Assembly (NCBI GenBank): GCA_000091205.1
Contig: AP006497.2
DNA: 64,000 nucleotides
Direction: 5' to 3' (one strand)
Source: Cyanidioschyzon merolae
Taxonomy: Eukaryota
Made by a program: the position numbers and the translations under genes. How positions within the stretch are numbered: position 1 is the first letter of the stretch; each line of letters begins with the position of its first letter. Positions 16,393 through 58,713 of this stretch are shown piece by piece. A model generated the notes under the pieces. The model saw nothing but the letters and a program-made list of their open reading frames with translations, had not been told where the DNA came from and did not search any database.

Positions 16393-16632
16393 CTGCCGCT
16401 GTCGCTTGGTACCCGCGCACGGACACCAAGTGACGACTTGCAACCTCTACACGATCCATACTCAATTATGATCGCTGCCGGTGTCGCTTGGTACCCGCTC
16501 ACTGACGCCAAGTGGCGACTTGCAACCTCTATACGATCTATTCTCAATAATGACCGCTGCCGGTCTCGCTTGGTACTTGCGCACGGACACCAAGTGGCGA
16601 CTTGCAACCTCTACACGATCCATACTCAATCA
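16393..16632. repeat. Tandem repeat, 82-bp unit, about 2.9 copies
   Basis: CTTGCAACCTCTA recurs at 16437, 16519 and 16601. The unit begins CTGCCG(C/G)TGTCGCTTGGTACC. The repeat lies 160 bp downstream of the UCH37 stop codon. Confidence 0.85.
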
Positions 16633-16793
16633 TGTGTCCAATACAGCACCACAGCAAAGCGCTGTGCCCTTTACATCAGCGCCACCTGCGCTGATCTCGA
16701 CCGCATCATTTCAACAGACGCAGGAAGATTCTTGTCCCGGTTGTCAGCGGCATCAACGTTGGCGATGCGCTGCAATGGCGCAGCGGCGACGAA

Positions 16794-19647: not shown

Positions 19648-19740
<93 letters not shown>
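19648..19740. repeat. (CACG)n microsatellite, about 23 units
   Basis: An uninterrupted GCACGCAC... run is read directly, starting ~95 bp downstream of the AAA ATPase stop codon. Confidence 0.95.
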
Positions 19741-20959: not shown

Positions 20960-22209
20960 TGGTCTCTTCCCAGTATCATCAGCAACAGCCTTTGCGAGAT
21001 CCTTCGGCGACTGCTCCCTTTTCCGGTCTCTTGTCTCTGGCGTGCCATAGCCGATCTCTCCTGTGATCGATGTACTATGTCAGCAGTCAACGGATGCCGA
21101 TGGCAGCATCGAAGCCTCGATTTCGCTGCTTCTGGCTGTCGCCGACGCGCTTCATGAACAGACCGTAGATGCGATCTACGCCCCGCTTGGCATGTTCGCC
21201 TTCTTCATCATATACCGCCTCTGTACGCCGTATACAGCGGTGACGCTTCGCTACCGTCGGTTATTCGCGTATGTCGACTGCGCGTCTTCCGCGGGCCGTC
21301 CTACAACGCGTGAACGCTTGCCTCATCGCCCGGCACATGCCCCGCCATGGCACAGAACGCTTCTCTGGGTGCGGTCCTCGGTTTCAGCACGCGGTGCCGT
21401 GCACTACGATTACGTGCTCCACCCGGGCGATCCTCTCGCCATTGTCTCTGTCCTCTGCACGAGCAAGCGCGCGCTCTTCCAATGGATAGATGATTTATGG
21501 AACGCGATGTCGTCCACGATGAAACTTGTGTCGGAAGGAAAACCAGGGCTGGATCAGCATTCGAGAGATTCGGATGCGTCAACGCTGCCTCCGTACGAAT
21601 CGATGACGCACTCTGCACTAGCCGCACTCGCGGCGATACAAGAAGGCCGGTTCGAAACCTCTTCTCCGTGCAACCGGAAGCGTCGTGTGCCTCAGGGAGT
21701 ACAAGCCATGAGGTATGCCATGCTCCTGGGGAATGCGGTTCCGTTAGTGGCCTCAGAGAGAGGATAATTTGGCTTTCCGTGAGATTGTTTATTTGATGTG
21801 AGTGTCTCAGTGAACTCTTGGCGTGGACTTGCCAAGAGGTCGATGAGGGTCTTCGATGGGTTTTTCCTATTCAATCCAGATGCGCAGAATGCTGAGCCCA
21901 CGACTTGCCTACAAAAACTGGTTGATCGAAAACTTGGTGAATGCTTATGTTGAGCATGCTGCGCGCAATAAACGGAGAAGCGCGGAGTCTCGTACTTATG
22001 CATTGGATAACGATATCGGTTCTTTTACGGAACCCTGCTGGAGGGCGTCGTGCTTCATCATGATTTCGATAAAGGATCGAATTCCCGCTGCAAAGAGTCG
22101 AGGAAGCCACTTGGAAAATACGACCGAGACTCCCAGAACTACCTAAGAATCCGTAAGCCGCCATTGTTGCACGTCCTTTTTCGAAGCTGTTCATCTAGAA
22201 AATTTCGGA
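20960..22209 (+). repeat. Dispersed element family, copy A2. The near-identical core shared with A1 is 20960-22085.
   Basis: See A1. Beyond 22085 the similarity to A1 drops to roughly the inter-subfamily level, but ATCCGTA, TTGTTGC and AAAATT anchors can still be followed. Confidence 0.8.
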
Positions 22210-23985: not shown

Positions 23986-25305
23986 TCAGATGAAAAAGGA
24001 ACAGTAAACAGTTCGTTCTGGTCTAGATGTTTGATTTTTTCGGATCTTATGAACGATGTACAGCATCGACACTCAATGACCAAAAGTAGCACTATTGGAT
24101 TCATATGCTGTTTACCGATGCTCGGTCGCCGTTTCGGGATGGCATCTTCGGCGTTTCGTAGCTGGAATCGTAATGGAACCTAAACCATGAGCATTTATAA
24201 CGCCCGCGAGCAACGGCTCCTAAAAATACCCGATATCGTTATCCAGTGTATACGGACTGGCCTCCACGCTTCTCTGCTCTGGATGTGCAGCGTGCCCAAA
24301 TCGTGCATTCTTCGAGCCTCTTCGGTTTCTGTTCCGAGGCTACGACTGGGCGCATCAATGCTGGCCACTGGATTCTTGGGGAACTGCGGTCGACGTTCTC
24401 CCTTGACGACTTGTTTGCATGGTCATCCCGAAAGTCCACGGAGATGCTCATGTCAAACGATCGATTCGGTTCGAAAGACATATCCTGCTCTCTTTGTGGC
24501 CACCGAAGACTCCCGTTTTTTGGACAGCACCGTGATACCTCACTCTCTCACGGAGGTATGCTCCAAGAGGCTCTCCTCTGTCTCCCATTCGCATGGACAG
24601 AGGTCTTCGACTCGGACTTGAGCTGTCGCAGTGAACGCTCCCAGTGCAGCGCTCATTGCCGGTCCGCACTGAGCGATCACAGACAGATCGACGAATCTCG
24701 ACTTCCTCTACATCCTTTACTTGCCGTACGCTACGTGTTTCATCGCGGGTAGCATCGCGCTCCACAAATCTTTTTTCAAATGAAGCAGTGTGCGTTTGCG
24801 TGTGCAACGCATAGAGCAAGTGCCGAGACGATCTCCCGGAAAAAGCACGTCATCGAAGTGCGTCGCACCGGCTGCTGAAGCCGTGCATGGCATCGAAAGA
24901 GGCGTCCTGTGTCCATCAATAGGGTCTGTCTAGCGACCGAACAAAAGGTCACGGGTTATAGGACGGCGCTCGGTCGGGAAGATGCGTTGGACATACCGAA
25001 GCACCTGACCACAGTCAAGCGTTATTGCCCGAAAAGGCGCACCAGGCCGTATACAAAGATGAAGAATAGAACGGGCGAGGCGTGGATCGCTGCTGCTGAC
25101 TCTACGTTACCTTTTGTCGATAACAGCCAGACGCAGCGAGCTTCAGAAGAGAAAGCTGCCGTCAACTTCATTCAACAGCTGAAAAAGGCCAACGATCGCA
25201 GAAGAGACCTGAATACGTAAAGCCGGAGAAAACAGACTGAGAAAGGAGCAGAACGGCAGACGAATCCATCAAAGGCTGGTGCTTATGATACTGAGAAGAG
25301 ACCCA
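23986..25305 (-). repeat. Dispersed element family, copy B2 (inverted relative to A). The near-identical core shared with B1 is 23986-25261.
   Basis: See B1. 25262-25305 (GGCTGGTGCTTATGATACTGAGAAGAGACCCA) is the reverse complement of the A left terminus (TGGTTCTCTTCCCAGTATCATCAGCAACAGCC) with a few substitutions. This defines a shared element end. Confidence 0.85.
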
Positions 25306-32243: not shown

Positions 32244-33268
32244 CGCAAACACAAGCGAACTTGGATGCAAACGCAGGCACACAGCGCTCAACAAGAAACA
32301 ATGCGAAACAGCGCGTCCTGAATGCGACAGATGCGCACGCAGCGTCGTCGCTGCGGCGCGCCGCGATGTCACGCGCCTAGCCCGATGTGACGTTCGCGGT
32401 GCGATGCGCCAAGCACCAGCGCACGCCGACGGGCGGCGGCGTAACCGCGGGATGCTTCACCTGCAGTATCCCTGGATGTGCGAATTCGGCGTGGAACTCG
32501 GGGAAAGGAACCTCAAGTACCGCAGAGCACTGAAGACGCTGCGTCAAAATTCTGACGAGTAACGCATTGAGGACGAATCGGTCGCGTGATTTCCACAGTG
32601 CCGAGCGCATTCGTGTCGTTCAATGGGGTGAACTTGGGGCATTCTTCCACATGGGTCCAGATGTTTATAGGGTGCAAGTAGTTAGCAAATAGGCCGTTGT
32701 TCATGTACAGGCACTTTCGCAAAACGCCAGATTCAGAGGACGCTTGCGTATGGCCTTAGTAGCGAGACCCTGCGATGATGCTGGTGGCGAGTCGGGCGCT
32801 GGTGCTTACTGCAGCACCAGATGCACAGCCCAGAAGTGTGTCGCGAGAAGGAACGGTCACGCGGTAACTGCCTCTGCTTTTTGGTTTCACACCTGCACTG
32901 TCCACGTTTCTTTCTCTCTGTCCAACACTTGATGATCGCCATCATGGTTCAGAGCCCGTCGCATGGAAACTTCAGCGGGATGCAATTCCATGACAACGGA
33001 TGCGCTGGATTCGTGCTGAAGCCCACGCACGCTCAGCGATGTTGTTCTGTCTGGGAGGAAACGAGACGACGCTGGAACATCCACCATCGAAAAACTTGCC
33101 TACAGTCTGCTCCGCGTCAACAGAGTCGCTGGATGGACTGATCTGTGGCTCGTGCGCAGCGTCCTCACATCCGCTAAAAACAAGTGATGATCGCTCGTCT
33201 GGTTTTGGGCGGCAACTGCACCTTTAGTGGACTACTGTGCGACGTATCCATCAAACTGCATGAAGCGA

Positions 33269-33562
33269 GAAGCCGACGCCCTCTGTGTGTGCTACGGCAA
33301 CGCCGTACTGTCTCCGTGCAGCGACCGCACCGGCGCTATAGACGACATTGCGGTCGCTTTTGGCAGGCACTAGGCACACACGATAGGACGTATGAAACGA
33401 CCAGAATATCCGAGAAGAAGTATAGGTCATGTAACTTGGAGGTAGCGGGTTTGATGGATACTTCACCGCGCACTGAAAAAACACAAAGAAACAGAAAGAA
33501 AAGAAAAAAGCGCATAATCGGAGAACGCTGGTCTATGGAAACGTTTTGTCAATGAAGAAAAG
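33269..33562 (+). mobile_element. 5'-truncated copy of the retrotransposon 3' module (E2), flanked by an 18-bp target-site duplication
   Basis: It aligns to 4621-4898 of the RT-bearing element and ends ...GTCAATGAAGAAAAG. The sequence TCAAACTGCATGAAGCGA occurs perfectly at 33251-33268 and again at 33563-33580, immediately flanking the insert. Confidence 0.88.
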
Positions 33563-33758
33563 TCAAACTGCATGAAGCGAAAAGGCGCCGCCGCCGCCGC
33601 TGCCGCCTGCTGCGCAACGAAACATCGCGCGACGTCCAAGTCCGATACAAGCTCTGCTGCTACACATCACGCCTGTAAACGTACTCGCCGCGAGTCGCGT
33701 CGTTCTTCTGTACTTTGTGAGAGCGCTTGGGAGCATGCCTGGTTGAGCACGAGTGCTC

Positions 33759-37149: not shown

Positions 37150-38229
37150 TCAGCAAAGGAGCTCCGCCATGACGCGCTCTTCATCCGCTGGCGATGCAAC
37201 GATTCGACAGAAACCGATTCCTTCACCAGGTGACGGATTTTCCCATTTGCCTGCAAACGACGTCACCACTTTCACCACATCGTTCTCGGTGCTTTCAAAA
37301 AGAGTCGGGTGATTGGGTCCCCGCAAAAGCACTCTCCGTATGCATTCATCCAGTGGAACCGGGAAAACGAGAACGCCTACGGGGTAGGCATTCGCTTGCG
37401 CTGCAATCGCTATCCAGACCGCTCGTTGTGCGCTATCCACGTTGCACCGGTCGACAATGACGTGGCGAGGAGGATCAGACGTGAGCGCCTCCTGCATCAT
37501 GCGCTCACACTCCTGCCGAGATCCGAGATCATCCTGGCTGACTCGTACCCAGTTTTCACCTCCGTGTTTTAACACGAGTTTCGCGAATGTCGACTTTCCC
37601 GATCCAGGAATGCCACAGAGTAGGACTACGCGGGACCGATGCGCTCTCCCCGAGCTCTGGAGTTGCTCCTCCGAGGACCTGTATTGAAACTCGGAACTGG
37701 CTGCTGTCACCTCGGTCAGCGGCGCAGCCACACCCCAGCGTTGATCAGCTTCGCGGGTGCGCCCGATGTCGCAGTCGTGACCAGCAGTGTCGTCGGTGTT
37801 GCTCGGCGAACACGCAGTCGATGATAGGCAGCTCACGTGCAGCTCTCCACGCTCCTTACTGGCCAGAACCGACTGTTGCGGGCGCAACCGCTCCAGGTCC
37901 GAAGTGCCGTCTGTTCGCGAAAGCAGTGGCGCTCGGACAGCGCTCCGGATCGAAACGAAAAGCCTCTGTAAACGGTGTACCAACTGTACCGTTTGGCGAG
38001 CTGGGTTGTTCCCTGAGGCAGTGCTGGTCCGCATATCGCCAGAAAACAATGTCTGGCGTAGAGGGTGCTCGCTCAGAGCCAGCGTCACTTTGCAGTGTCG
38101 CCGCGCAGCGGGCTCCCTGCTCTTGCAGCAAAGTCGTCGAGCACACGTGTTTGCCGGCGTCGGTCGCTGCTGAACCAGAACCAAAGTTGGACCCACGAAA
38201 AGTCGAGTTCCAAGCTTCCTCTTGAGCAT
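37150..38229 (-). CDS. P-loop kinase-like protein (AAA_33 / polynucleotide-kinase-like domain) with a long low-complexity N-terminus
   Basis: Walker A VVLLCGIPGSGKSTFAK is followed by VRVSQDDLGSRQECERMM and HVIVDRCNVDSAQR in the C-terminal ~170 aa. The ORF-track start at 38430 is GTG. The first ATG is at 38229, and the true start could lie further downstream. Confidence 0.65.
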   Translation of the reverse strand: MLKRKLGTRLFVGPTLVLVQQRPTPANTCARRLCCKSREPAARRHCKVTLALSEHPLRQTLFSGDMRTSTASGNNPARQTVQLVHRLQRLFVSIRSAVRAPLLSRTDGTSDLERLRPQQSVLASKERGELHVSCLSSTACSPSNTDDTAGHDCDIGRTREADQRWGVAAPLTEVTAASSEFQYRSSEEQLQSSGRAHRSRVVLLCGIPGSGKSTFAKLVLKHGGENWVRVSQDDLGSRQECERMMQEALTSDPPRHVIVDRCNVDSAQRAVWIAIAAQANAYPVGVLVFPVPLDECIRRVLLRGPNHPTLFESTENDVVKVVTSFAGKWENPSPGEGIGFCRIVASPADEERVMAELLC

Positions 38230-38540: not shown

Positions 38541-38929
38541 CAGCACGCGCATGATGCGTGCGTGCTTGGCACCGAACGCAGTAGCCACGACGACTCCTAC
38601 AGAGCGCCTCCTCTGGGTCGTTGAGGGCGTCAGATTCCATGCCACACTTGAGACTGGCAGTGCCCATACACGCACTGGAGCTGAGCGTTGTCATAAATCG
38701 GGACCTGGGGCTGCGAAACAATCGCTCTCAATGGTATTGCTGGCGTGCAACGAATGGACAGCGGGCACCACAACGCAAGTGCCCGCGGAATGCGGTGCGC
38801 TGGATGATTTCCTTGCATCTGTATGCAAGGATGCGCGCTCTGCTTCTTGTGCTGGTGCTGCTGCTTTGGGGAATTTGTGCACGTGCGTCATCCACGCTGA
38901 TGGTTGCTTTTCGAATGGTGACTACTGAG
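38541..38929 (-). repeat. Repeat D1, the inverted partner of D2 (44303-44690)
   Basis: The translated ORF pair 38500-38928(+) and 44307-44711(-) differs at 4 of ~125 aa, which implies about 98% nucleotide identity in inverted orientation. Confidence 0.88.
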
Positions 38930-39709
38930 GCGCATTCGCGAACATACATACTGATCTTTACCGAGCAGCAAGCGCGAAGCAGTCGCATGTAAGCGATTGT
39001 TGCGACAATCAGCTACCCGCATGCGTAAAGCTCTACCATTGCCAACGATGCTCTCTACTGAAACCGCATCATCCTCGGAAGGCACGTATCACCGATGCGC
39101 TATTATCATTGGACGCAAGCCGCCGAATCATCGTGCCGTTCGGCAGCGCGTGCACCACCAAACGATCAAAAAGCGCAGGTTACACCTGCACCCGTTCGCC
39201 TGCACCGCAGTATCTCGTTCAAGCAGTCGCACGATGATGGGGCTATTGCGCCAATCTGGAAACCGCACCGCCGTCCACCGACAATCCCGCGAACACCCGT
39301 GTCCTTTCCTACCTAACAAAATGTTAACGTACACCGGGGGATTCCGATTGGGCGCCAGCTAGCAGCGCTCTATGTAGCAAACACACGTCCACGTGTCGAT
39401 CGCGCGTGCACCGGAATCCCGCCTCTGCCAGCAGCTGTGCGCTGCGGTGATCGCGGATTCGCGCCAACGACGCCAAGCGCTGCTGCTGGTGCTCTCGGTG
39501 CCCGTAATCCGTTGTTGCGCTCAGACGATATGCGCGCGCGCGCACGCTGGCGGGGGCACTGGCTGCGATCCGCGAACGTACGTTGCCGTAGCGCTGCATT
39601 TTTCGTTGAGGCTGTGCTTGCTCGTAGGTCGAGAAGCGGCCCGGTTGCGGCCGCAAACAAGTTCGAGTCCAAACGGGACCCGCAACAACACGAACAAGTG
39701 TTTTGGTGA

Positions 39710-40573
39710 ATGTTCCTCTTTGCTAGCACGTTTGTGTGTCAGCGAGCCTGGCCGCGAGCGCGCTTTCGGAACGCCCCGTGTCGGCGCGTGACGTTGGACG
39801 CTAGGGGTGACTCAGTGAGTGCAGGTGCCGAACAGCCGACGCGTCGTCCTGAGGCGCCCGCGAAAAGGCGTGGGAGTCGCTTTCTCATCAAGGTCCGAAA
39901 GTCTGTGCGCACCACACGCAAGCACGGTAGCGTCATTCCAGCTGATGTTTGGTTACCACCCGAACTAACAAGTGACGTTTTGCCTTGCGGCGACAGCAAA
40001 CTCTTGGATAATGAGGCGCACTTACCGGCGCTGGTGCTCAACGCGGACTATAGACCCCTTTCGTACCTGCCACTGTCGTTGTGGTCCTGGCAAGAAGCAA
40101 TAAAGGCGTCGCTTTCGGGTCGCGTTCGTGTTGTTGCCGAGTACGATAAAATTATTCGTGCACCGTCGATGAGCATGCGGTTGCCTGCTGTGGTGTGCCT
40201 CAAGCGCTTTCAGCAGAGCACGGTCTCTCGGGCAGCTTTCACACGTTTTAACGTCTTCCTTCGGGACTCGTTCCAGTGCCAGTATTGTGGTACGAGCGGG
40301 CCTATCACAGATCTGACGTTTGATCACGTCGTGCCGCGTTCGCGCGGTGGCAAGACGTGCTGGCGCAATGTCGTCACCTGCTGCACGGCCTGCAATCGAC
40401 GCAAAGGCGGCAAACTGCCCCACGAAATACCAAATATGACGTTGCAACGTCAACCTTATGTACCGCTATACTGTGAATTGCAGGAAGTGGCCCGTAAGTT
40501 TCCCCCGCGATTCTTGCATGAGACCTGGGCAGACTACCTGTTCTGGGATGTGCCCCTGCAACGAGACGAATGA
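39710..40573 (+). CDS. HNH endonuclease domain protein (bacterial/cyanobacterial McrA-like type) with a basic N-terminal extension
   Basis: ATG start, 287 aa. The HNH core is FQCQYCGTSGPITDLTFDHVVPRSRGGKTCWRNVVTCCTACNRRKGGKLP, preceded by LVLNADYRPLSYLPLSLWSWQEAI. The N-terminal ~90 aa is rich in Arg, Ala and Ser. Confidence 0.85.
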   Translation: MFLFASTFVCQRAWPRARFRNAPCRRVTLDARGDSVSAGAEQPTRRPEAPAKRRGSRFLIKVRKSVRTTRKHGSVIPADVWLPPELTSDVLPCGDSKLLDNEAHLPALVLNADYRPLSYLPLSLWSWQEAIKASLSGRVRVVAEYDKIIRAPSMSMRLPAVVCLKRFQQSTVSRAAFTRFNVFLRDSFQCQYCGTSGPITDLTFDHVVPRSRGGKTCWRNVVTCCTACNRRKGGKLPHEIPNMTLQRQPYVPLYCELQEVARKFPPRFLHETWADYLFWDVPLQRDE

Positions 40574-42893
40574 TGGAGGTTTGGGGTACGAACGTGACTT
40601 GGAAGTGCCCCGCCCCGCGGTTGCGTATCTCGAACGTTTGCCTGTCTGGGGCAAGCCTCGTTAGAATGCAGCACTTCAGTGCGAAGTGAGTATACGAGCT
40701 GCAAGAGCTGTCGACCAATCCACGGAGCGCGCGCTTCGTGGAACCATCTGATTCAGAGGATCCCGGGCAGAGCCATGATCTCTAGGCTTTCGAAGGCGTA
40801 TCGCTGCTTTTGCCGGCATTGGCGCTGTTCGTGGTCCAGATGTATTGGAAGCGAGTCCGACCGAACGCTATGCGCTGTCGAGAGAAACGACTGATTCAGC
40901 GTGTTATTTACTTTGCGATGGAGACGAATCCGCAGGCCACGATCGAGCCCTTTGCGAACAGTGCTTATTTCTGGTCGATCTGTAGATGTGCAGAATGGAG
41001 GTGTCAGGTGCATGGAATGCGCGTCACGATACAACGCGGATCTTGTGGCACGACATGGCATTGCACAGCTGGTACCGAGGAAGCTTCGTCAGAAACCAAC
41101 AGGGAGCTATTCTTTCCGTGTGGAATCGTGAGAAGCGTGCAATCGCTATGGGTTGCCATCCGTCGTGTATTTCAACGCAGCGAGGCCGTTTCATCTAGCG
41201 TGAATTCTAAAATGTGCAGTATCTGCTCATCGGTCAACTGCAGTACACTCGTGTCCGAATGAAGTGGAACCTGTCCACTTGCCTACGACAGGCGCACGCT
41301 CTCAAGTCTGGACAGCTCCCACTGCCATGAACACTGGTCTTTGCGGGCTTTTTATACAACTGATTCTTTTTTCTTCTTGACATCTTCGGCTCTAAACTCG
41401 CCTGGCTCTCCTGCCCGACCAGCTCCATCGTCCGCAATTCAAAGGATTTTGGCGGAGGCGTTCAATTCTCGTGTTCACCGCTTCTGCACGTGATTCACAA
41501 GCACCACGCGTAAGCGGAAAACTTGCGATCTACGCTTCGCTTGTTGCTTTCAATATCTTTTTGTCAGGTTTTGCGCGCCCTTCGCAGCGCTGACGCGTCA
41601 CAATTGGTAACGGTTCCCGAATGCGTCGGCCGCTCCTCGCTCTTCGGTAGACGCCCTGTGGCGCGCTAACGCTCGCTTGATCGCTTGTTTCATGCCCTTG
41701 ACAGGTACAGAAAGGAGGTCTCCGCTGCTTTGCTGTGTTTTGGCTCCTAGTCCGAGCCATGCGAACAACCCCTCGACTGGGAGACGCCCTCGGAGAATAC
41801 TCTGTTCGCTACAGGCGCAAGCGCACGCTGTTCCATTTGATGGAGGAATCGTTGAAAGCGATATTGTCCGGGATGGAAGAAGCACCCGAAAAGGAATTCT
41901 AGGCTCGAGAACACGTCGAGAAATGTTGATCCATCTCCGGCTCCTTGTTTCCAAAATGCTGACGCTTGCTCTATCGGAAGCCGTCGCTTTATGGACAGAG
42001 GTCCATGTCCAAGACACGTGTCCGTGCAAAAACCAGGATGCCGATGCCTTTCGAGGCATATCTCGTGATAGGCTTCGAGCTGGTGTCGCATGCATTTTGC
42101 CGATGGCCTCTAAGAGAGGGGCAATTTGTTTCTTGAGCGGAATCGATTCTTTGAAGTGAAAAGATCGTTGAATTCGCAGCGTGAACCTGTGAACAAGCAA
42201 TCAACGGATGACGTCGAGGTGTTTCCCTTTTCAAGTCAGCGGTGCGAATTCCAACGGCCACGATTTGTCCTGGAACAGAGAGATCGAAATCTTGAAAAAT
42301 GTGAAATTTGAGCATGCTACACGTACAAAAAGGAGAAGCGTGGAAGCCTGCACATGTTAATTGGATGAAGATATCCACTTTTTTAAGAGCTCTTGTTTCA
42401 TTGTGTCGCGAATCATTTCGATTCCGGCGACGTAACGAATTCCAGCAGCAAAGGATCGAAGGAATCGCTGCGAAAAGACTACCAAGAATAACAAACCCCG
42501 TATGCAACCGAACGTTCTTTCTACTGTTCTGCGACCACCAAAGCTCCACGTCTAGAACATCTTCTGAAAAACAATCACAACGCAGGAACAAAGCGACTGC
42601 TTCAGTGTTCCGTGTTTATCCGACACAACTCCAGCGGACGGAAATCTGTCCCTATCCGAGAACAGCGAATAGTTGCAACGCAGGCATGCCCTGCACCCGA
42701 TCGCATCAGGTAAACGGCCTTCTTCGATTGAGACAACGTTTCTCCGCACCGGGGATTCCCGATTTATCCATCCCACAGAGCAGGCAAACCATGGAGATCA
42801 CGTATTCGGTGAAAGCGTTGTCACCAGGTCTCCTCTGGTTGCGTTCAGCGCGATTGCATGCCCATGGACGTTGCCATACGACGCATCGGTCGC

Positions 42894-43733
42894 CTAGGCA
42901 TTGGGCACTTTGACTGGCGATAGACCCATCTGTTCAAAGCGGCCGCTCTGCTCCCAGGCATGAACGCCGCCCTCAATTTCCTCGAGCACACGAGCGGCCG
43001 TCTCCGAGGAAGCTCGGAATCCCTCGAGGAGTTGCTGGAGCCGCGGACGGTTCCGGAACACCGGACGATGATGCCACTTGGGCATGATCGCAGCGTACAT
43101 CGCCAGTGTGGGCGCCAAAGCGATATCTGCGAGGGTCACCATTTGCGTTTCGACGGCATGACGTCTGGTATTGTCCTCAGTGAGCATGGTCTCGAGTGTA
43201 TCGAGATGTAGCTCGATTTGCGAGAGCCCATGCTCTCGCTCCGCAGGTGTATTTGTAGGCCGATACAGCACCGCCTGATTCGTCGTGAGGTACAGATCGT
43301 GCACTCGTACATAGAGACGCGCGCGAGCTCTTTTCTCTGGAGTCTGCGGCCGGTATCGCTCCCCGAGTCCGTATTTGTCGAGGAGATACTCGACGATGAC
43401 GTCACTTTCCCAGATGCTCTCTCCCGTGGGCAGCACTAACGCAGGGAACTTGCCATACTTGTGCACTCTCTGTCGATATTCCGAAGTTTTCAGGTATGAA
43501 CCTGGAGGTTCAATTTTTATGTCCAGGTTGTTATCGTAGATGATATACCGAACGCGAGCAGAAAAGTTCGACACGGGAACCGAGAAAAGCGTAGCAGTCT
43601 GGTTGCTTGTCGTGTCGTTCATCAGCACGCACAAGGTTCCCTTGTTGATAAAGTGACGCCGTTGGGCTCGCGGAAATATTGCTTGGATAGGCGTATGCTT
43701 AGGTCGAACAGGCAGAGCGTGAATGAAAGCCAT
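42894..43733 (-). CDS. Glutathione S-transferase-like protein
   Basis: ATG start, 279 aa. The thioredoxin-like N-domain (LFSVPVSNFSARVRYIIY...KFPALVLPTGESIWESDVIVEYLLDKYG) carries the ES..I..YL signature and is followed by a helical C-domain. Confidence 0.75.
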   Translation of the reverse strand: MAFIHALPVRPKHTPIQAIFPRAQRRHFINKGTLCVLMNDTTSNQTATLFSVPVSNFSARVRYIIYDNNLDIKIEPPGSYLKTSEYRQRVHKYGKFPALVLPTGESIWESDVIVEYLLDKYGLGERYRPQTPEKRARARLYVRVHDLYLTTNQAVLYRPTNTPAEREHGLSQIELHLDTLETMLTEDNTRRHAVETQMVTLADIALAPTLAMYAAIMPKWHHRPVFRNRPRLQQLLEGFRASSETAARVLEEIEGGVHAWEQSGRFEQMGLSPVKVPNA

Positions 43734-43903
43734 CGGTTGTTGCGTAGGCCCCAGAAATACAGCGCGCTCTCTACGTGCCTCTGGGCGGGTCTAAGCGAAA
43801 GGACACAATAGTAATTGACAACTCTGGCTGCAAGCGATGCGATGCAGAGGCCACCGGGCGGCGGCTGCGGAGGCGTCCGGTGCTCGATGGAGCGATTCGC
43901 GAG

Positions 43904-43904
43904 G

Positions 43905-43964
<60 letters not shown>

Positions 43965-43965
43965 C
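43904..43965. repeat. (GCCT)n microsatellite, about 15 units
   Basis: An uninterrupted GCCTGCCT... run is read directly, about 170 bp upstream of the GST-like ATG. Confidence 0.95.
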
Positions 43966-44302
43966 TTCTCGCTACTGCTGAACAGCGTTTCGCGCCACGT
44001 GTGGTGGATGAGCTTAGGCGCTGCTCGATCAATGTTTACGCCAAGAGCTACCCGCATTGCTCTGTGGCTTGCAAACCCGGATGCTGGCCGACCGCATGGG
44101 TCCAGTACGTGCTGCTGCCAGATGAAGATCGAAGAACGAGTAGTTTTGGTGTTTAGGGTTCTCGGAATGGAGGCTCATTCCTGGTAGCGTTCATTAGAGA
44201 TTCGCAAAAGAAGCCGCCGATGATTTCAGGGCTGGGTTGAGCGTCTTTTGCGCGCTAGATGACAGGCGTATGCAGAGGTATCCACCATCAAGCACCCTTC
44301 GG

Positions 44303-45251
44303 GACCTCAGTAGTCACCATTCGAAAAGCAACCATCAGCGTGGATGACGCAAGTGCACATATTCCCCGAAGCAGCAGCACCAGCACAAGCAGCAGAGCGC
44401 GCATCCTTGCATACAGATGCAAGAGAATCATCCAGCGCACCGCATTCCGCGGGCACTTGCGTTGTGGTGCCCGCTGTCCATTCGTTGCACGCCAGCAATA
44501 CCATTGAGAGCGATTGTTTCGCAGCCCCAGGTCCCGATTTATGACAACGCTCAGCTCCAGTGCGTGTATGGGCACTGCCAGTCTCAAGTGTGGCATGGAA
44601 TCTGACGCCCTCAACGACCCAGAGGAGGCGCTCTGTAGGAGTCGTCGTCGCCACTGCGTTCGGTGCCAAGCACGCACGCATCATGCGCGTGCGCGTACCT
44701 TCTAGGCACAAGGTCCAGCGAATCGGATGCGCACACGGGTCCAGTGCGCTCTCTGCGCCTACCCACTGTGGTGGGTGTCAAGCACAAACCCGCATTGCCA
44801 ACCGACAACGCATTCCATGCATGATCACGAAGGAGAGAGGCCGCTCCCAGGATTCATCCTAACAGCCAAGTTTCTCCAGCGTGTCGTGCAGCGAAGGCAA
44901 GCCTGCATCCGCAGACTGTCTGAGCACAAACTGACGACGAGACCCGATTCTACGTCGTGTAAACCACGCTTCGAGCCGACGCCCTCTGTGGTATAGAAAA
45001 GCTATTCTAGCTCTATGAACTATCTGCTCCAGCGGTTCAGGCGCAAAGGCGGATGATTAGGGTAGGTACTAGACACACCCGATAGGGCATATGAGACGAC
45101 CAGAATATCCGAGAAGAAGTATAGGTAATGTAACTTGGGAGTAGGAGGTTGATGGATACTTCACCTCGCACTGAAAAACCCAAAAAGAAAAGAAAAATGC
45201 GCATAATCGGAGAACGCTGGCCTATGGAAACGTTTCGTCAATGAAAAAAAA
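44303..45251 (+). mobile_element. Composite retroelement fragment: repeat D2 (44303-44690) fused to the 3' module E3 (44697-45251), ending in an A-run
   Basis: E3 aligns with 4337-4898 and ends ...GTCAATGAAAAAAAA at 45251. D2 contains a degenerate Cys-knuckle-like stretch (WCPLSIRC...TIES...) at the position where the RT-bearing copy has HCPCC...LQCPRW. This suggests a 5'-truncated copy of a related subfamily. Confidence 0.7.
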
Positions 45252-45510
45252 TGTGCATGCGCGCCGTCGCCGCGTCGCTGCGTGCGTGCCCCGTCATCGA
45301 TGCCGTGCACGCGGTAGCGCTGAACGCTCTAGCGAGCGAGGCAGCAGCGTCTTCATTCCTTCTTTGTGACAGAGGCACCGCGCTACCTTCATACGTCTTG
45401 ATCTGGTTACCTCACAACGTGCATAGCGTTTGAAACTGCACTCGTATCCTACTTACAAAGGACGTGGCGGCGTGAGAGGAAAAGCAGTGGCACGGACGCG
45501 ATCCCGCGAG

Positions 45511-46287
45511 ATGGATACCACCGCCAGCTACCACGTGTTGCTGGTGTTGCTCTCCGTTGAGACTTTTCTCTTCTTTGCAGTTATTGCACAGACAGCAGTG
45601 CAGGAGCCGCTCGCACACGGGAAAATCGCCCGCTTTTTTGGCCTTGCTTTTCTGTCAGAGTCGGTTGCGGGCCTCGCACTTGCAGTTACGCCACTGCTGC
45701 GCGGAAGCGTGTTCCTGCTGGACCTTTTTGCGCTGATCGCTGTTGTGGCGATATGGGCGGGCGCCGCTGTTGCAATCATTGGTGCGGCACACGTTGTTTT
45801 TCCAGAGGATGCGAGACGGGAAGTTCGGGTAGCTCTGGTCGTGCTGTTTGCGTTTGTGTTCGCGTTCGGAACCGCGCGTCTCTATGTCGCAGTAAGTGCC
45901 GCGACACCGGCTTTGCCCCTCTGGTCCACAGACTCGCTGCGGGTGTCTGTTGCGGTTAGCCAGGGCGCTATGGCCAGCGTGGGTGCTGCTTGTGTCCTGC
46001 GAGCGCTGGCTCGACCGAAAATACGGGGCCGGAACGGGGCTTCAGTTTTGCTCCTGGGAACCTTGGTTTGCCTTGTAGGTTCAGTGATTTGGACATGGCT
46101 GTTAGGCAAATGCGAGTTGTCGCAGACGTTGGACAAGGAAGATGTACGGTGTCCGCTTCCACCGGTGTTCGATCACAACGCTCTTTACTGTCTGTTTCTT
46201 ATTGCAGGCAATATTCTGAGTGCAGAAGGCGTCCTGCGTCTTATGGCTGTCGGGGACGGCGCGTTGAACTATGCAGAGATTCCCTGA
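45511..46287 (+). CDS. Multi-pass (about 7 TM) membrane protein of unknown function
   Basis: 258 aa counting from the ATG at 45511; the ORF-track start at 45430 is TTG. It has successive hydrophobic helices, for example FLFFAVIAQTAV, FFGLAFLSESVAGLALAV, LFALIAVVAIWAGAAVAIIGA, ALVVLFAFVFAFG, VLLLGTLVCLVGSVIW and LYCLFLIAGNIL. Confidence 0.6.
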   Translation: MDTTASYHVLLVLLSVETFLFFAVIAQTAVQEPLAHGKIARFFGLAFLSESVAGLALAVTPLLRGSVFLLDLFALIAVVAIWAGAAVAIIGAAHVVFPEDARREVRVALVVLFAFVFAFGTARLYVAVSAATPALPLWSTDSLRVSVAVSQGAMASVGAACVLRALARPKIRGRNGASVLLLGTLVCLVGSVIWTWLLGKCELSQTLDKEDVRCPLPPVFDHNALYCLFLIAGNILSAEGVLRLMAVGDGALNYAEIP

Positions 46288-46863: not shown

Positions 46864-47638
46864 GAAAGCGAATTTTTCCATGATGAAACAAGTACCGGAA
46901 GGAATGCGCAGTTTGCATATACTGTCGAGACATACCGATCGATCTACGCTCCCCTTGTGCAGAGCGATGACCCAAGCTCCTCTGCAGGATATCGCTGGGT
47001 CCACAGCACGCCGTGCTCAAGATGCTTTTCTTTGCAAGCACTGGAGACAGGAGTCTCTGGAGGCACGTCCCGTGAGCGGTTTCGTTCGGCTGTGGACTGC
47101 CGTTTCTTCCACAGCGACAAAGGGATGAGGATTTGTGTCTCGAACCGGATCGATTGCTTGCTGACGTTCCAGGTCCAGGGAGTATGCGGCGCGCGCTCCT
47201 GAACACGTCCTCAAGCCACGTCGTCGAGTTTTGGTCTCTCGTCTATCCAGCGGCGTGCACGACCGCGCCCTCGACTTGCCCTGAACTCGAAAGATCCACA
47301 GCATGAAACATGTGTGATTTGCGCACAGTACACGTCATGACATGGGAAGCGTGGCGGCGTGTCCGTATGAACTGCATCACGATAGCGGTTGGTTAGGATT
47401 CCTTGCTCCAGCGTGTCGAGAATCAGCGTGCCTGCTGTAGCATACCGAGAATCCGGCGGCAAAGAGACGATGGAGCCAGTCCGAAAAGGCATCGAAGCAC
47501 CCTAAATTTACGTATGAACCCGAAAGCCCATCTTGCAGCACTGAGCGTGTCGAGTCTATATACCTACAACATTGGACGGGAGCAAAACAATCGAGTCGCA
47601 GAAACAGTGAGGAGTAGAGCGCTCCACCGTCTTCTGAC
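46864..47638 (+). repeat. Dispersed element family, copy C1 (5'-truncated, near-identical to 54192-54966)
   Basis: It matches at a constant offset of 7328, and paired ORF translations are identical or differ by 1-3 aa (about 99% identity). It ends ...CCACCGTCTTCTGAC, 323 bp upstream of the Yip1-domain gene ATG. Confidence 0.88.
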
Positions 47639-49635: not shown

Positions 49636-49824
49636 GCGTCTTCGATGCCCCTTGCAGACCAAGAATGCGTGACCGCCCGCTGGTATAGGGCGCTGTAGCA
49701 ACTACTTGGAGCGTCTTCGATGCCCCTTGCAGACCAAGAATGCGTGACCGCCCGCTGGTATAGGGCGCTGTAGCAACTGCTTGGAGCGTCTTCGATGCCC
49801 CTTGCAGACCAAGAATGCGTGACC
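49636..49824. repeat. Tandem repeat, 75-bp unit, about 2.5 copies
   Basis: CTTGCAGACCAAGAATGCGTGACC recurs at 49651, 49726 and 49801. The repeat lies in the intergenic region between the Yip1-domain and PMS1 genes. Confidence 0.9.
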
Positions 49825-53675: not shown

Positions 53676-54966
53676 TGGTCTTTGCGCGCTCGTTCGGTAA
53701 TGTCTTTCGTATACCTTCGGCAAGCTTCTGCGCTGGGTGTGCAGGTCTCCTGTGTCATTCGAGCTTCGGTTTCAGTAGTGGATGGATATTGATGGCAACG
53801 GTAGTGGTACGATGCCGCAATTTCGAGTTGCTGTCGAGGCATTTCATGCACAGAAGGTAGTTGCGATCAACGTTTTGCTCGCCATGATCATCTTCATTGC
53901 AGACAGCTTCGGTGGGCGCTTTGTACCGCTGACGCATGCCTGTGATAAGGTGCCCCCATATGTCCATCGTGCCTCCGTTCCCGATAGCCGCCCTGGGTCG
54001 CGTCAAGGCCAGCATCATCGCTCAGGAACCGTCCTCGAAGCGTACAGAAGGTGTCAGTGGATACCCGCTCCCGTTTCCGCGCCCGTTGCCGTGCCCTACA
54101 ACCATGTGCTTCTTCTGGGGGATCCACTCCTCGAGTACGCTCTCCACTGCACACGAAAGCGCATGATGTGCTTTGCAGTTGTGGATTTGCAGAAAGCGAA
54201 TTTTTCCATGATGAAACAAGTACCGGAAGGAATGCGCAGTTTGCATATACTGTCGAGACATACCGATCGATCTACGCTCCGCTTGTGCAGAGTGATGACC
54301 CAAGCTCCTCTGCAGGATATCGCTGGGTCCACAGCACGCCGTGCTCAAGATGCTTTTCGTTGCAAGCACTGGAGACAGGAGTCTCTGGAGGCACGTCCCG
54401 TGAGCGGTTTCGTTCGGCTGTGGACTGCCGTTTCTTCCACAGCGACAAAGGGATGAGGTTTTGTGTCTCGAACCGGATCGATTGCTTGCTGACGTTCCAG
54501 GTCCAGGGAGTATGCGGCGCGCGCTCCTGAACACGTCCTCAAGCCACGTCGTCGAGTTTTGGTCTCTCGTCTATCCAGCGGCGTGCACGACCGCGCCCTC
54601 GACTTGCCCTGAACTCGAAAGATCCACAGCATGAAACATGTGTGATTTGCGCACAGTACACGTCATGACATGGGAAGCGTGGCGGCGTGTCCGTATGAAC
54701 TGCATCACGATAGCGGTTGGTTAGGATTCCTTGCTCCAGCGTGTCGAGAATCAGCGTGCCTGCTGTCGCATACCGAGAATCCGGCGGCAAAGAGACGATG
54801 GAGCCAGTCCGAAAAGGCATCGAAGCACCCTAAATTTACGTATGAACCCGAAAGCCCATCTTGCAGCACTGAGCGTGTCGAGTCTATATACCTACAACAT
54901 TGGACGGGAGCAAAACAATCGAAACGCAGAAACAGTGAGGAGTAGAGCGCTCCACCGTCTTCTGAC
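53676..54966 (+). repeat. Dispersed element family, copy C2 (full length). The near-identical core shared with C1 is 54192-54966.
   Basis: 54192-54966 matches C1. The part left of 54192 has no match in C1 but aligns to copy A; for example TCCATGATGAAACAAGTACCGGAAGGAA at 54205 matches TCCACGATGAAACTTGTGTCGGAAGGAA at 10196. It starts TGGTCTTTGCG at 53676 and ends ...TCTGAC 328 bp upstream of the DEAD-box gene ATG. Confidence 0.8.
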
Positions 54967-57406: not shown

Positions 57407-57679
57407 ACGGGTGCGGTGGTGGTATCCACGGCTTTGTACTCAGTCGCATGGTTGTGTCGATTCTGTTTAAGCAGCTTTGGCAAAAGCCAAAACGAGCGTG
57501 TTCATCGTTCAACCACGATTTCTTAGCCCGCAGCGACTGAAAGCAACTGGGCGCGCTTTAGGTTTCCGCGGCAGCGACGGGCGAGTCGCTTCACGACGCT
57601 TCGTTCAGTTGCAAGTCGAGCATCCTGTGGTCTGTGCACCTGGGATAGACTAACGCCGTGGAGGATGCGGAACCACGCT

Positions 57680-58713
57680 GCAGCTGGTAAAAAGAGGTAC
57701 CTCCAAAGACGCTGATACTCTCCGCTAATCGAGCTACAAGACATGCTCTGCAAAGAAGAGCTAGGAAGGGCTCTTGCAGTATGCTGCAGCTGGTAAAACG
57801 AGGTACCTCCAAAGACGCTGATACTCTCCACTAATCGAGCTACCTAGACATGCTCTGCAAAGAAGAGCTAGGAAGGGCTCTTGCAGTATGCTGCAGCTGG
57901 TAAAACGAGGAACCTCCAAAGACGCTGATACTCTCCGCCAATCGAGCTACCAAGACATGCTCTGCAAAGAAGAGCTAGGAAGGGCTCTTGCAGTATGCTG
58001 CAGCTGGTAAAACGAGATACCTCCAAAGACGCTGATACTCTCCACTAATCGAGCTACCTAGACATGCTCTGCAAAGAAGAGCTAGGAAGGGCTCTTGCAG
58101 TATGCTGCAGCTGGTAAAACGAGGAACCTCCAAAGACGCTGATACTCTCCGCCAATCGAGCTACCAAGACATGCTCTGCAAAGAAGAGCTAGGAAGGGCT
58201 CTTGCAGTATGCTGCAGATGGTAAAACGAGATACCTCCAAAGACGCTGATACTCTCCACTAATCGAGCTACCTAGACATGCTCTGCAAAGAAGAGCTAGG
58301 AAGGGCTCTTGCAGTATGCTGCAGATGGTAAAACGAGATACCTCCAAAGACGCTGATACTCTCCACTAATCGAGCTACCTAGACATGCTCTGCAAAGAAG
58401 AGCTAGGAAGGGCTCTTGCAGTATGCTGCAGATGGTAAAACGAGATACCTCCAAAGACGCTGATACTCTCCACTAATCGAGCTACCTAGACATGCTCTGC
58501 AAAGAAGAGCTAGGAAGGGCTCTTGCAGTATGCTGCAGATGGTAAAACGAGATACCTCCAAAGACGCTGATACTCTCCACTAATCGAGCTACCTAGACAT
58601 GCTCTGCAAAGAAGAGCTAGGAAGGGCTCTTGCAGTATGCTGCAGCTGGTAAAACGAGGTACCTCCAAAGACGCTGATACTCTCCGCTAATCGAGCTACC
58701 TAGACATGCTCTG
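57680..58713. repeat. Tandem array, 107-bp unit, about 9.7 copies
   Basis: CTCCAAAGACGCTGATACTCTCC recurs at 57701, 57807, 57914, 58021, 58128, 58235, 58342, 58449, 58556 and 58663. The period is 107 bp, except that the first unit is 106 bp. Units 6-9 appear identical. All frames are closed by TAA/TAG. Confidence 0.95.

What the first reader, a model, noticed from the sequence alone, without database searches (positions are those of the whole stretch)
38541..44690. A 388-bp inverted repeat pair of ~98% identity brackets a 5.4-kb segment carrying the HNH endonuclease and GST-like genes
D1 (38541-38929) and D2 (44303-44690) are inverted copies that differ at only a few positions. Between them lie the HNH gene (+), about 2.3 kb with no convincing gene, the GST-like gene (-) and the (GCCT)15 microsatellite. 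Highly similar inverted repeats at this spacing are substrates for recombination that flips the intervening segment. D2 is contiguous with a retroelement tail (E3) but D1 is not. D1 is therefore either a fragment copied from D2 or the remnant of a second insertion.
Basis: partly seen in the sequence, partly recalled or inferred. Interest (0 to 1): 0.5.

Follow-up and report, generated by a model that had tools for sequence, protein, structure and literature searches.

The report
Inverted duplicate fused to retroelement tail
A 388-bp stretch of non-coding DNA occurs twice, in opposite orientation, around two ordinary conserved genes on chromosome 15 of the red alga Cyanidioschyzon merolae. One copy is joined to a truncated retroelement at an old rearrangement breakpoint, the two copies keep each other alike by gene conversion, and flipping of the segment between them is plausible but unproven, so this is ordinary genome micro-evolution.

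Summary
The inverted repeat is real: arms 38543-38930 and 44305-44692, 388 nt, 380/388 identical, 5374 nt apart. The window is Cyanidioschyzon merolae 10D chromosome 15.

D is a species-specific, two-copy, apparently non-coding sequence. It is not part of the E retroelement and not the terminal repeat of a mobile cassette. The HNH and GST genes between the arms are conserved host genes. They keep this order and orientation in Cyanidiococcus and Cyanidium.

D2 abuts the 5'-truncated non-LTR copy E3 with 3 nt between them. The D2-E3 intergenic region is also the left breakpoint of a C. merolae-specific inversion of about 25 kb. The best reading is that D2 is a templated copy of the D1 region, laid down together with E3 during insertion or break repair. 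This is inferred, not shown.

In about 50 wild metagenome contigs, three of the variable sites or site pairs that separate the arms in 10D are polymorphic at both arms. Arms within one genome differ at 0-2 sites. That indicates gene conversion.

Parental junctions dominate 32 to 2. The two flipped junctions, one of each reciprocal type, may be short-read mis-joins. Flipping is therefore plausible but unproven. Low to moderate interest.

The parts
38543..38930 (+). D1, left arm of the inverted repeat. It lies in the divergent intergenic region between the kinase-like gene (-) and the HNH gene (+).
   Evidence: Present in 22 wild contigs with the reference flanks A and HNH. Nucleotide diversity is 0.007, the same as neighbouring intergenic DNA.
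44305..44692 (-). D2, right arm. It lies in the divergent intergenic region between GST (-) and CMO030C (+). Its outer end lies 3 nt from E3.
   Evidence: Present in 10 wild contigs with the reference flanks GST and E3/B.
44693..44695 (+). A 3-nt filler (GCG) between the end of D homology and the start of E homology. There is possible TA(C)C microhomology at the join.
   Evidence: Read.
44696..45250 (+). E3, a 5'-truncated copy of a non-LTR retroelement. It comprises the last 555 nt and ends in an A-run at 45243-45250.
   Evidence: 87% identical to E1 at 4341-4898. The sister copy E2 has a clean 18-bp target-site duplication. E1 carries RVT_1.
44682..44689 (+). CATGCGCG at the outer end of D2, repeated at 45255-45262 just after the E3 tail. 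It is a candidate short target-site duplication or microhomology, but it does not abut E3.
   Evidence: 72 of 5000 shuffles, and 46 of 5000 random pairs of window 30-mers, reach 8 nt.
45255..45262 (+). Second copy of CATGCGCG, 4 nt after the E3 A-run.
39710..40573 (+). HNH-domain gene (BAM81423). It is a conserved host gene, not cargo of a mobile element.
   Evidence: Pfam. Identity to BAM81423. Orthologue 77% identical and syntenic in Cyanidiococcus, and present in Cyanidium.
42894..43733 (-). Glutathione S-transferase gene (BAM81424), convergent with HNH.
   Evidence: Orthologues are 78% and 60% identical in Cyanidiococcus and Cyanidium.
41630..42490 (.). Diverged copy of an interspersed repeat inside the 2.3-kb gene-free gap between HNH and GST.
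   Evidence: blastn and tblastx similarity to 9960-10812, 21277-22132, 15012-15542, 24207-24737, 47056-47387 and 54115-54817. The same gap is 0.76 kb in Cyanidiococcus and 0.17 kb in Cyanidium.
43904..43965 (+). (GCCT)15.5 microsatellite between GST and D2. Its length varies in wild contigs.
   Evidence: Alignments of wild contigs break at 43925-43948.
43734..45471 (.). The GST/CMO030C intergenic region. It is the left breakpoint of a C. merolae-specific inversion of about 25 kb, and it contains the microsatellite, D2 and E3.
   Evidence: Synteny with two outgroups ends here. The orthologue of the outgroups' GST neighbour is CMO040C (BAM81430). It lies about 6.8 kb beyond the AMP-binding gene, on the opposite strand.
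37150..38229 (-). Kinase-like AAA_33 gene (BAM81422, 359 aa as annotated). It is the left neighbour of D1, with its ATG 314 nt from D1.
45472..46287 (+). CMO030C (BAM81425 family), the right neighbour of E3.

Best explanation
D1/D2 is a two-copy, species-specific, non-coding inverted duplication on chromosome 15 of Cyanidioschyzon merolae. It brackets two conserved host genes, HNH and GST, arranged tail to tail.

It is neither retroelement sequence nor the terminal repeat of a mobile cassette.

Origin (inferred). D2 is the secondary copy. About 388 nt of the D1 region, 5.4 kb away, were copied in inverted orientation and joined, with 3 nt of filler or microhomology, to the 5' end of a truncated non-LTR cDNA (E3). 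There are two candidate routes. The reverse transcriptase may have jumped from the E RNA to a minus-sense template from the D1 region. Alternatively, both pieces may have been captured as filler during repair of a chromosome break. The site is also the left breakpoint of a lineage-specific inversion of about 25 kb, so the same break may have produced all three features.

Present behaviour. The two arms recombine with each other. Gene conversion is well supported by population data and keeps them 98-100% alike. Occasional crossing-over would flip the 5.4-kb HNH-GST segment. Because both arms are intergenic, a flip would break no gene. The reference orientation is ancestral and predominant. A flipped allele is possible but not demonstrated.
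For: Identity of the locus:
- Exact protein matches to C. merolae 10D BAM81412-81427 on a 902,900-bp record.

The repeat is real and also present in wild genomes.

D is not retroelement sequence:
- E1 and the longer E copy at the start of L016 continue 5' of the junction with unrelated retroelement sequence.
- E1 and E2 in the window have no D.

D occurs in two copies only, as far as could be searched:
- A 22-mer scan found only this locus in JGI metagenome contigs and nothing in the genome or viral collections.
- Every contig recovered through ORFs lying in D maps to these two sites.

D is non-coding:
- The 125-aa ORF has no homologue outside its own cluster.
- There is no Pfam or Rfam hit and no unusual folding.
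- It is not annotated: BAM81422-81425 are consecutive.
- Diversity in D is 0.006-0.007, against 0.0015 in the HNH coding sequence.

HNH-GST is not a mobile cassette:
- The order kinase(-)-HNH(+)-GST(-) and its orientation are conserved in Cyanidiococcus and Cyanidium.

Link between D2 and E3:
- D homology ends at 44692 and E homology starts at 44696.
- D homology does not resume after the E3 tail.
- An independent insertion landing within 5 nt of the boundary in a target of about 1.2 kb has a chance of roughly 1%.
- There is no target-site duplication around D2+E3 (longest shared string 3 nt), whereas family member E2 has an 18-bp one. That fits break repair.

Breakpoint:
- Synteny ends right of GST. 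The outgroups' neighbour gene is CMO040C, now inverted and about 25 kb away.

Gene conversion:
- The haplotypes at positions 41/44 (AC or GG) and 268/269 (TC or CT), and the allele 333A, each occur at both arms in different genomes.
- Contigs spanning both arms show 0 differences (L028-L030) or 0-2 differences over the shared part.
- Three of the eight differences in 10D are private to 10D's D1.
Against: - Polarity (D1 to D2) is not proven. Intergenic DNA of the outgroups is too diverged to show which arm is older. No allele lacking E3 or D2 was found.
- An 8-nt CATGCGCG is shared by the outer end of D2 and the flank after the E3 tail (p about 0.01). It could be a short target-site duplication. 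That would mean the end of D2 was already at the site when E3 inserted.
- A template jump to RNA needs a minus-strand transcript starting at least 700 nt upstream of the kinase ATG. This is untested.
- The association with the 25-kb inversion breakpoint is only at the resolution of one 1.7-kb intergenic region.
- Gene-conversion evidence comes from short-read metagenome contigs. Phasing of sites 120 nt from a flank is borderline, although sites 41/44 and 303-369 lie well within k-mer reach.
- The whole 10D genome could not be searched for further D copies.
Confidence: 0.5

Rival explanations
1. Two independent events. An older DNA-level inverted duplication created D1/D2. Later, E3 inserted by ordinary target-primed reverse transcription right at the outer edge of D2. 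It duplicated CATGCGCG and added 6 nt of filler.
For: CATGCGCG occurs at 44682-44689 and again at 45255-45262, with a chance probability of about 0.01. The E family makes target-site duplications: E2 has one of 18 bp. The window holds several other local duplications of 97-99% identity, so segmental duplication is common here.
Against: The 8-mer does not abut E3: TGCGCG intervenes. It is also much shorter than E2's 18 bp, and it sits in GC-rich, low-complexity sequence. The model needs an insertion that by chance lands within 3 nt of the duplication boundary, which is about 1% likely. D homology does not continue beyond E3.
Confidence: 0.25
2. The inverted repeat was once longer. E3 inserted inside the right arm with loss of the outer remainder of that arm, so the homology boundary equals the E3 junction by construction.
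For: This explains the exact boundary without co-insertion. There is no target-site duplication around E3 or around D2+E3, as expected for an insertion that deletes target DNA.
Against: No trace of A-flank sequence is found right of E3. The model needs a deletion that removed exactly the rest of the arm. There is no independent sign that the duplication ever extended toward the kinase gene.
Confidence: 0.12
3. D belongs to the retroelement or to a non-autonomous element that uses the E tail (D+E as a SINE-like unit). D1 would then be the remnant of a second insertion.
For: D2 and E3 are contiguous and could be read as a head plus a LINE-derived tail.
Against: E1 and the longer E copy at the start of L016 carry different sequence at the corresponding position. 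D1 has no E tail, A-run or target-site duplication. D was found only at these two sites in all the data that could be searched.
Confidence: 0.03
4. D1 and D2 are terminal inverted repeats of a DNA transposon or mobile cassette that carries the HNH endonuclease and GST genes.
For: The arrangement looks like 388-bp terminal inverted repeats around 5.4 kb that includes a nuclease-domain gene.
Against: Kinase-HNH-GST synteny and orientation are conserved in two other genera. There is no transposase, no flanking target-site duplication and only a single locus.
Confidence: 0.02
5. A functional, regularly flipping genetic switch. Both orientations would coexist, and inversion would change expression of HNH and GST or their neighbours.
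For: One contig for each reciprocal flipped junction was found (L007, L057). Each arm lies in the same orientation upstream of its inner gene.
Against: Junction counts are 32 parental against 2. Both exceptions switch inside stretches where the arms are identical, and L057's JGI sample series has other chimeric contigs. There is no recombinase gene and no conservation of D above the intergenic level. The three 34-kb contigs that span both arms all show the reference orientation.
Confidence: 0.05

Closest known systems
Chimeric LINE insertions made by reverse-transcriptase template switching (for example U6-L1 and mRNA-L1 chimeras in mammals), and captured filler DNA or retroelement cDNA at repaired double-strand breaks
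   Same: A 5'-truncated non-LTR copy with its A-rich tail is joined head to tail to an unrelated cellular sequence. The join is precise, with a few nt of filler or microhomology.
   Different: No target-site duplication surrounds the composite. The source lies only 5.4 kb away and in inverted orientation. Whether the template was RNA or DNA is unknown. The site coincides with an inversion breakpoint.
Low-copy inverted segmental duplications that undergo concerted evolution and mediate inversions by non-allelic homologous recombination (for example the human Xq28 emerin/filamin flanking repeats, and Y-chromosome palindromes)
   Same: The arms are nearly identical and inverted, polymorphisms are shared between the arms, and within-genome identity is high. 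The intervening single-copy segment could invert without breaking genes.
   Different: The arms are much shorter (388 bp) and lie in a very compact, repeat-poor haploid algal genome. The inverted state is not demonstrated.
Inverted duplications at inversion breakpoints under the staggered-break model described for Drosophila inversions
   Same: A duplicated sequence in inverted orientation sits at an evolutionary inversion breakpoint.
   Different: In that model the duplicates flank the inverted segment. Here the arms flank the neighbouring 5.4-kb segment, which is not inverted relative to the outgroups.

Membership tests
Part of the E non-LTR retroelement | The D sequence is present at the corresponding position in other, longer copies of the element | tested here: not met
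   E1 (4230-4340) and the longer E copy at the start of L016 carry unrelated sequence 5' of the TACCTTCTAGG point.
Part of the E non-LTR retroelement | Each copy ends in the A-rich tail and is flanked by a target-site duplication | tested here: not met
   D1 has no tail and no target-site duplication. E2 shows what a true insertion looks like, with an 18-bp duplication.
LINE-mediated chimeric retrocopy (template switch) | A precise fusion of foreign sequence to a 5'-truncated LINE, with both read in one direction | tested here: met
   D homology ends at 44692 and E homology starts at 44696, with 3 nt between them.
LINE-mediated chimeric retrocopy (template switch) | A target-site duplication flanks the whole chimera | tested here: not met
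   The longest string shared between the 30 nt left of D2 and the 30 nt right of the tail is 3 nt.
LINE-mediated chimeric retrocopy (template switch) | The source region is transcribed in the required sense (minus strand across D1) | not testable with these tools
   No transcript data were available.
TIR DNA transposon or mobile cassette | A transposase inside, a flanking target-site duplication, several copies, and absence from the orthologous site in relatives | tested here: not met
   There is no transposase domain and no target-site duplication. Only one locus was found. HNH-GST is syntenic in two other genera.
Paralogous repeats under gene conversion (concerted evolution) | Polymorphisms are shared between the paralogues, and the arms within a genome are more alike than expected from the polymorphism level | tested here: met
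   The 41/44 and 268/269 haplotypes and 333A are seen at both arms. There are 0 differences in L028-L030 and 0-2 differences in partial pairs.
Invertible segment (both orientations present) | Both reciprocal recombinant junctions are observed in reliable data | tested here: inconclusive
   L007 (B-D-HNH) and L057 (A-D-GST) stand against 32 parental junctions. Mis-assembly cannot be excluded.
Invertible segment (programmed switch) | A dedicated recombinase and conserved recombination sites | tested here: not met
   There is no recombinase in or near the segment. D diversity equals the intergenic level.
Staggered-break inversion duplicates | The duplicates flank the segment that is inverted relative to outgroups | tested here: not met
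   The segment between the arms has the ancestral orientation. The inverted block lies to the right of D2.

The most novel reading that the evidence does not exclude
In a genome with only 26 retroelements, one retroelement insertion or break-repair event at a 25-kb inversion breakpoint created a 388-bp inverted duplicate. That duplicate now acts as a natural recombination substrate. The HNH-GST segment would then exist in both orientations in wild hot-spring populations, and the L007 and L057 junctions would be real. If so, this is a traceable case of a retroelement seeding a polymorphic inversion in a minimal eukaryotic genome.
Probability: 0.2. Interest if true: 0.45.

Novelty: new member of a known kind. 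Interest (0 to 1): 0.3.

Why it matters
C. merolae is used as a 'simplest eukaryote' model with efficient homologous recombination and very little repeated DNA. This locus gives a compact and easily assayed natural test of three things:
- how a retroelement insertion or break repair creates low-copy repeats;
- how quickly 388-bp repeats 5.4 kb apart homogenise by gene conversion in wild populations;
- whether such short repeats produce inversion polymorphism.

There are two practical points. Short-read assemblies break or mis-join at these arms. The CMO027-CMO030 region should be treated with care as a targeting or neutral integration site. Nothing here suggests a new kind of biological system.

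Tried and rejected
- Coding potential of D was tested and rejected. The 125-aa ORF spans almost the whole of D, but it has no homologue beyond its own cluster and no Pfam hit. Its diversity is at the intergenic level.
- Structured RNA was tested and rejected. There were no Rfam hits even at E<=1. Folding z-scores were -0.4 and -1.5.
- D as retroelement sequence or as terminal inverted repeats was rejected.
- I searched for D in the outgroup intergenic regions with blastn (word size 7) and nhmmer. Nothing was found, so polarity could not be settled.
- I looked for more flipped-junction contigs through junction-specific ORFs. The allowed ones returned only parental junctions.
- I looked for an 'empty site' allele. 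L016 at first seemed to lack D2 next to E3. However, its first 98 nt belong to another, longer E copy and differ from E3 right at the join, so it is a graph tip or chimera and not an allele.
- I suspected a frameshifted kinase allele because many contigs carry 116-aa gene calls. The ORF is intact in all contigs checked, so this is a gene-caller artefact.
- Scans of the genome contigs and viral contigs collections for D were empty.
- A literature search found no description of this repeat.
Full report
**Observation**

The repeat finder reports a single long inverted pair in the region and in the whole window. The arms are 38543-38930 and 44305-44692, 388 nt each, 98% complementary, with 5374 nt between them. 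The alignment shows 8 substitutions and no indels. Homology stops abruptly at both ends.
- an HNH-domain ORF at 39710-40573 (+);
- a GST ORF at 42894-43733 (-);
- a (GCCT)15.5 microsatellite at 43904-43965;
- a 2.3-kb stretch without any domain-supported ORF.

D2 is followed after 3 nt by E3 (44696-45250). E3 is 87% identical to the last 555 nt of E1, a longer degraded retroelement copy at the window start, and it ends in an A-run. D1 has nothing of the kind beside it.

**What the window is**

Long intron-less eukaryotic genes (RRP5, PMS2, Yip1, SAM decarboxylase and others) exactly match proteins BAM81412-BAM81427 of Cyanidioschyzon merolae 10D on a 902,900-bp record. That record is chromosome 15 (CMO locus tags). 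The accessions for the kinase-like gene, HNH, GST and CMO030C are consecutive, so nothing is annotated in D1, D2 or the 2.3-kb gap. The published genome description reports only 26 non-LTR retroelements and a 253-copy interspersed repeat in this genome (PMC1955436).

**What D is not**

*D is not retroelement sequence.*
- Where E3 is truncated (TACCTTCTAGG...), E1 and a longer copy of the E3 subfamily caught at the start of contig L016 continue upstream with unrelated retroelement sequence.
- E1 carries the reverse-transcriptase domain, split by frameshifts.
- E2 (33271-33561) has a perfect 18-bp target-site duplication, TCAAACTGCATGAAGCGA. The family therefore inserts by target-primed reverse transcription.

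*D is not a terminal repeat of a mobile cassette.*
- In Cyanidiococcus yangmingshanensis and Cyanidium caldarium the order and orientation RRP5, S28e, two small genes, kinase(-), HNH(+), GST(-) are the same as here.
- HNH and GST are therefore old resident genes, and the reference orientation of the segment is ancestral.

*D shows no sign of coding or RNA function.*
- Its 125-aa ORF has no relative outside its own cluster among 5.8 billion proteins.
- There are no Pfam or Rfam hits and no unusual folding energy.
- Nucleotide diversity among wild contigs is 0.006-0.007 in both arms. That is the same as neighbouring intergenic DNA and four times that of the HNH coding sequence.

*D appears to exist only at these two places.*
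- A 22-mer from its core hits only this locus in the JGI metagenome contigs and nothing in the genome or viral collections.
- All contigs retrieved through ORFs lying in D map here.
- The complete 10D genome could not be searched with these tools.

**Origin**

The end of D homology (44692) and the start of E homology (44696) are 3 nt apart, with possible TA(C)C microhomology. D homology does not resume after the E3 tail. An unrelated insertion into an intergenic target of about 1.2 kb would land that close to the boundary about 1% of the time. I therefore infer that the making of D2 and the insertion of E3 are mechanistically linked.

The simplest link is that D2 is the secondary copy. The growing E cDNA, or a repair polymerase, switched to a template from the D1 region 5.4 kb away. 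It copied 388 nt and was joined to the chromosome. No target-site duplication surrounds D2+E3, unlike E2. This fits break repair or an insertion with target loss better than a textbook insertion.

A new piece of context supports a break at this spot. Synteny with both outgroups ends exactly in the GST upstream intergenic region.
- In the outgroups GST is followed by a 411-415-aa gene, then the AMP-binding gene(-), DEAD(-) and, in Cyanidium where the locus reaches that far, PMS2(-).
- In C. merolae GST is followed by D2, E3, CMO030C, Yip1, PMS2(+), DEAD(+) and the AMP-binding gene(+).
- The orthologue of the 415-aa gene is CMO040C (BAM81430). It lies about 6.8 kb beyond the AMP-binding gene, on the other strand.

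So D2 and E3 sit in the left breakpoint region of a lineage-specific inversion of about 25 kb.

One observation counts against co-formation. CATGCGCG occurs at the outer end of D2 (44682-44689) and again just after the E3 tail (45255-45262), with a chance probability of about 0.01. It could be a short target-site duplication of an independent E3 insertion. However, it does not abut E3 and lies in GC-rich, simple sequence. Neither coincidence can be dismissed, and polarity remains unproven because outgroup intergenic DNA is unalignable.

**Present behaviour**

I collected about 50 distinct metagenome contigs of wild Cyanidioschyzon, 99.1-99.8% identical to 10D. They come from JGI, ENA and Logan samples. 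I classified every D copy by its flanks and its alleles.

Five of the eight sites that distinguish the arms in 10D are not arm-specific in the wild:
- The 41/44 haplotype is AC or GG next to flank A (15 versus 16 contigs) and also AC or GG next to flank B.
- The 268/269 haplotypes TC and CT occur on both the HNH side and the GST side.
- 333A occurs in both arms of L002 and L006, but only in D2 of 10D.

The other three differences in 10D (303T, 325T, 341G) are private to its D1.

Contigs that span both arms show few or no differences between them. L028-L030, three 34-kb contigs, show 0 differences. Contigs covering only part of the second arm show 0-2. Shared polymorphism together with within-genome identity is the classical signature of gene conversion between paralogous repeats. 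The 98% identity therefore does not date the duplication.

Sites 41/44 and 303-369 lie within 90 nt of unique flanks, so their phasing in k=127-141 assemblies should be sound. Sites 268/269 are borderline.

**Flipping**

Among contigs that cross a whole arm with both flanks, the junction counts are as follows:

| Junction | Contigs |
|---|---|
| A-D-HNH (parental) | 22 |
| B-D-GST (parental) | 10 |
| B-D-HNH (flipped; L007, JGI 3300027863) | 1 |
| A-D-GST (flipped; L057, JGI 3300050388, only 112 nt of GST-side flank) | 1 |

The two exceptions are the two reciprocal junctions expected from an inversion, and they come from different samples. In both, however, the switch can be placed inside a stretch where the arms of that population are identical. 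In addition, L035-L037, which come from JGI samples numbered in the same series as L057's, have plainly chimeric ends. The three contigs that span both arms all have the reference orientation. Flipping is therefore expected from first principles, since crossovers accompany some conversion events, but it is not shown.

**Verdict**

The 'recombination substrate' reading is supported for gene conversion and remains open for inversion. The retroelement-remnant reading of D1 is not supported.

The feature is a new example of known phenomena: a low-copy inverted duplication, a chimeric or filler junction at a non-LTR insertion, and concerted evolution. It sits in a well-studied minimal genome. It has modest interest as an assayable locus and does not represent a new kind of system.

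Noticed in passing
window 43734-45471 (left breakpoint) to about 6-6.5 kb beyond the window end (right breakpoint, upstream of CMO040C); L067, L068, L069: There is a C. merolae-specific inversion of about 25 kb relative to Cyanidiococcus and Cyanidium. The block CMO030C-Yip1-PMS2-DEAD-AMP-binding...CMO040C is reversed. In the outgroups, the CMO040C orthologue is the direct divergent neighbour of GST.
   Followed up: partly
window 9646-10851 / 20963-22170; 14791-16071 / 23986-25264; 46864-47638 / 54192-54966: Three pairs of direct local duplications of 0.8-1.3 kb are 97-99% identical and spaced 7-11 kb apart. All contain a diverged core (66-72% identity) that is also present at 41630-42490 between HNH and GST. 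They probably belong to the 253-copy interspersed element reported for this genome (PMC1955436). Metagenome contigs also break at 46864-46990.
   Followed up: partly
window 57677-58713: A tandem array of a 107-bp unit (9.7 copies, 97% matches) lies between the DEAD-box helicase gene and the AMP-binding gene. Smaller arrays lie at 16393-16634 (82 bp x 3) and 49636-49824 (75 bp x 2.5).
   Followed up: no
window 43904-43965 and 19649-19740: There are perfect tetranucleotide microsatellites, (GCCT)15.5 and (CGCA)23. Alignments of wild contigs break at the GCCT run (window positions 43925-43948), which indicates length polymorphism. Diversity in the GST-D2 spacer is inflated (0.027).
   Followed up: partly
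window about 600-4898 (E1), 33271-33561 (E2): E1 is a degraded non-LTR retroelement. Its RVT_1 domain is split over two frames (2718-3092 and 3076-3960), and it has a C-run at about 4137-4149. E2 is a 290-bp 5'-truncated copy with a perfect 18-bp target-site duplication at 33251-33268 and 33563-33580.
   Followed up: partly
L035 1-1355; L036 8940-9092; L037 8951-9060; L016 1-98: Several metagenome contigs have ends that do not belong to this locus. L035 starts with an AT-rich BTB-domain gene. L036 and L037 have two different tails that diverge about 40 nt upstream of the GST start codon. L016 begins with a piece of another E copy. These are assembly chimeras, which is a warning for any junction-based inference from these data.
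   Followed up: yes
window 38810-38883 (D1 positions 268-341): Five of the eight arm differences in 10D lie at D1 positions 268-341, a 74-nt stretch. They comprise the three substitutions private to D1 of strain 10D (303T, 325T, 341G) and the 268/269 pair. No wild contig carries the three private changes. This may be a mutation cluster or a conversion tract of unknown source.
   Followed up: no
window 40574-42893 versus L067 10729-11489 and L068 10819-10988: The spacer between the 3' ends of HNH and GST is 2.3 kb in C. merolae, 0.76 kb in Cyanidiococcus and 0.17 kb in Cyanidium. The extra DNA includes the interspersed-repeat relic.
   Followed up: partly
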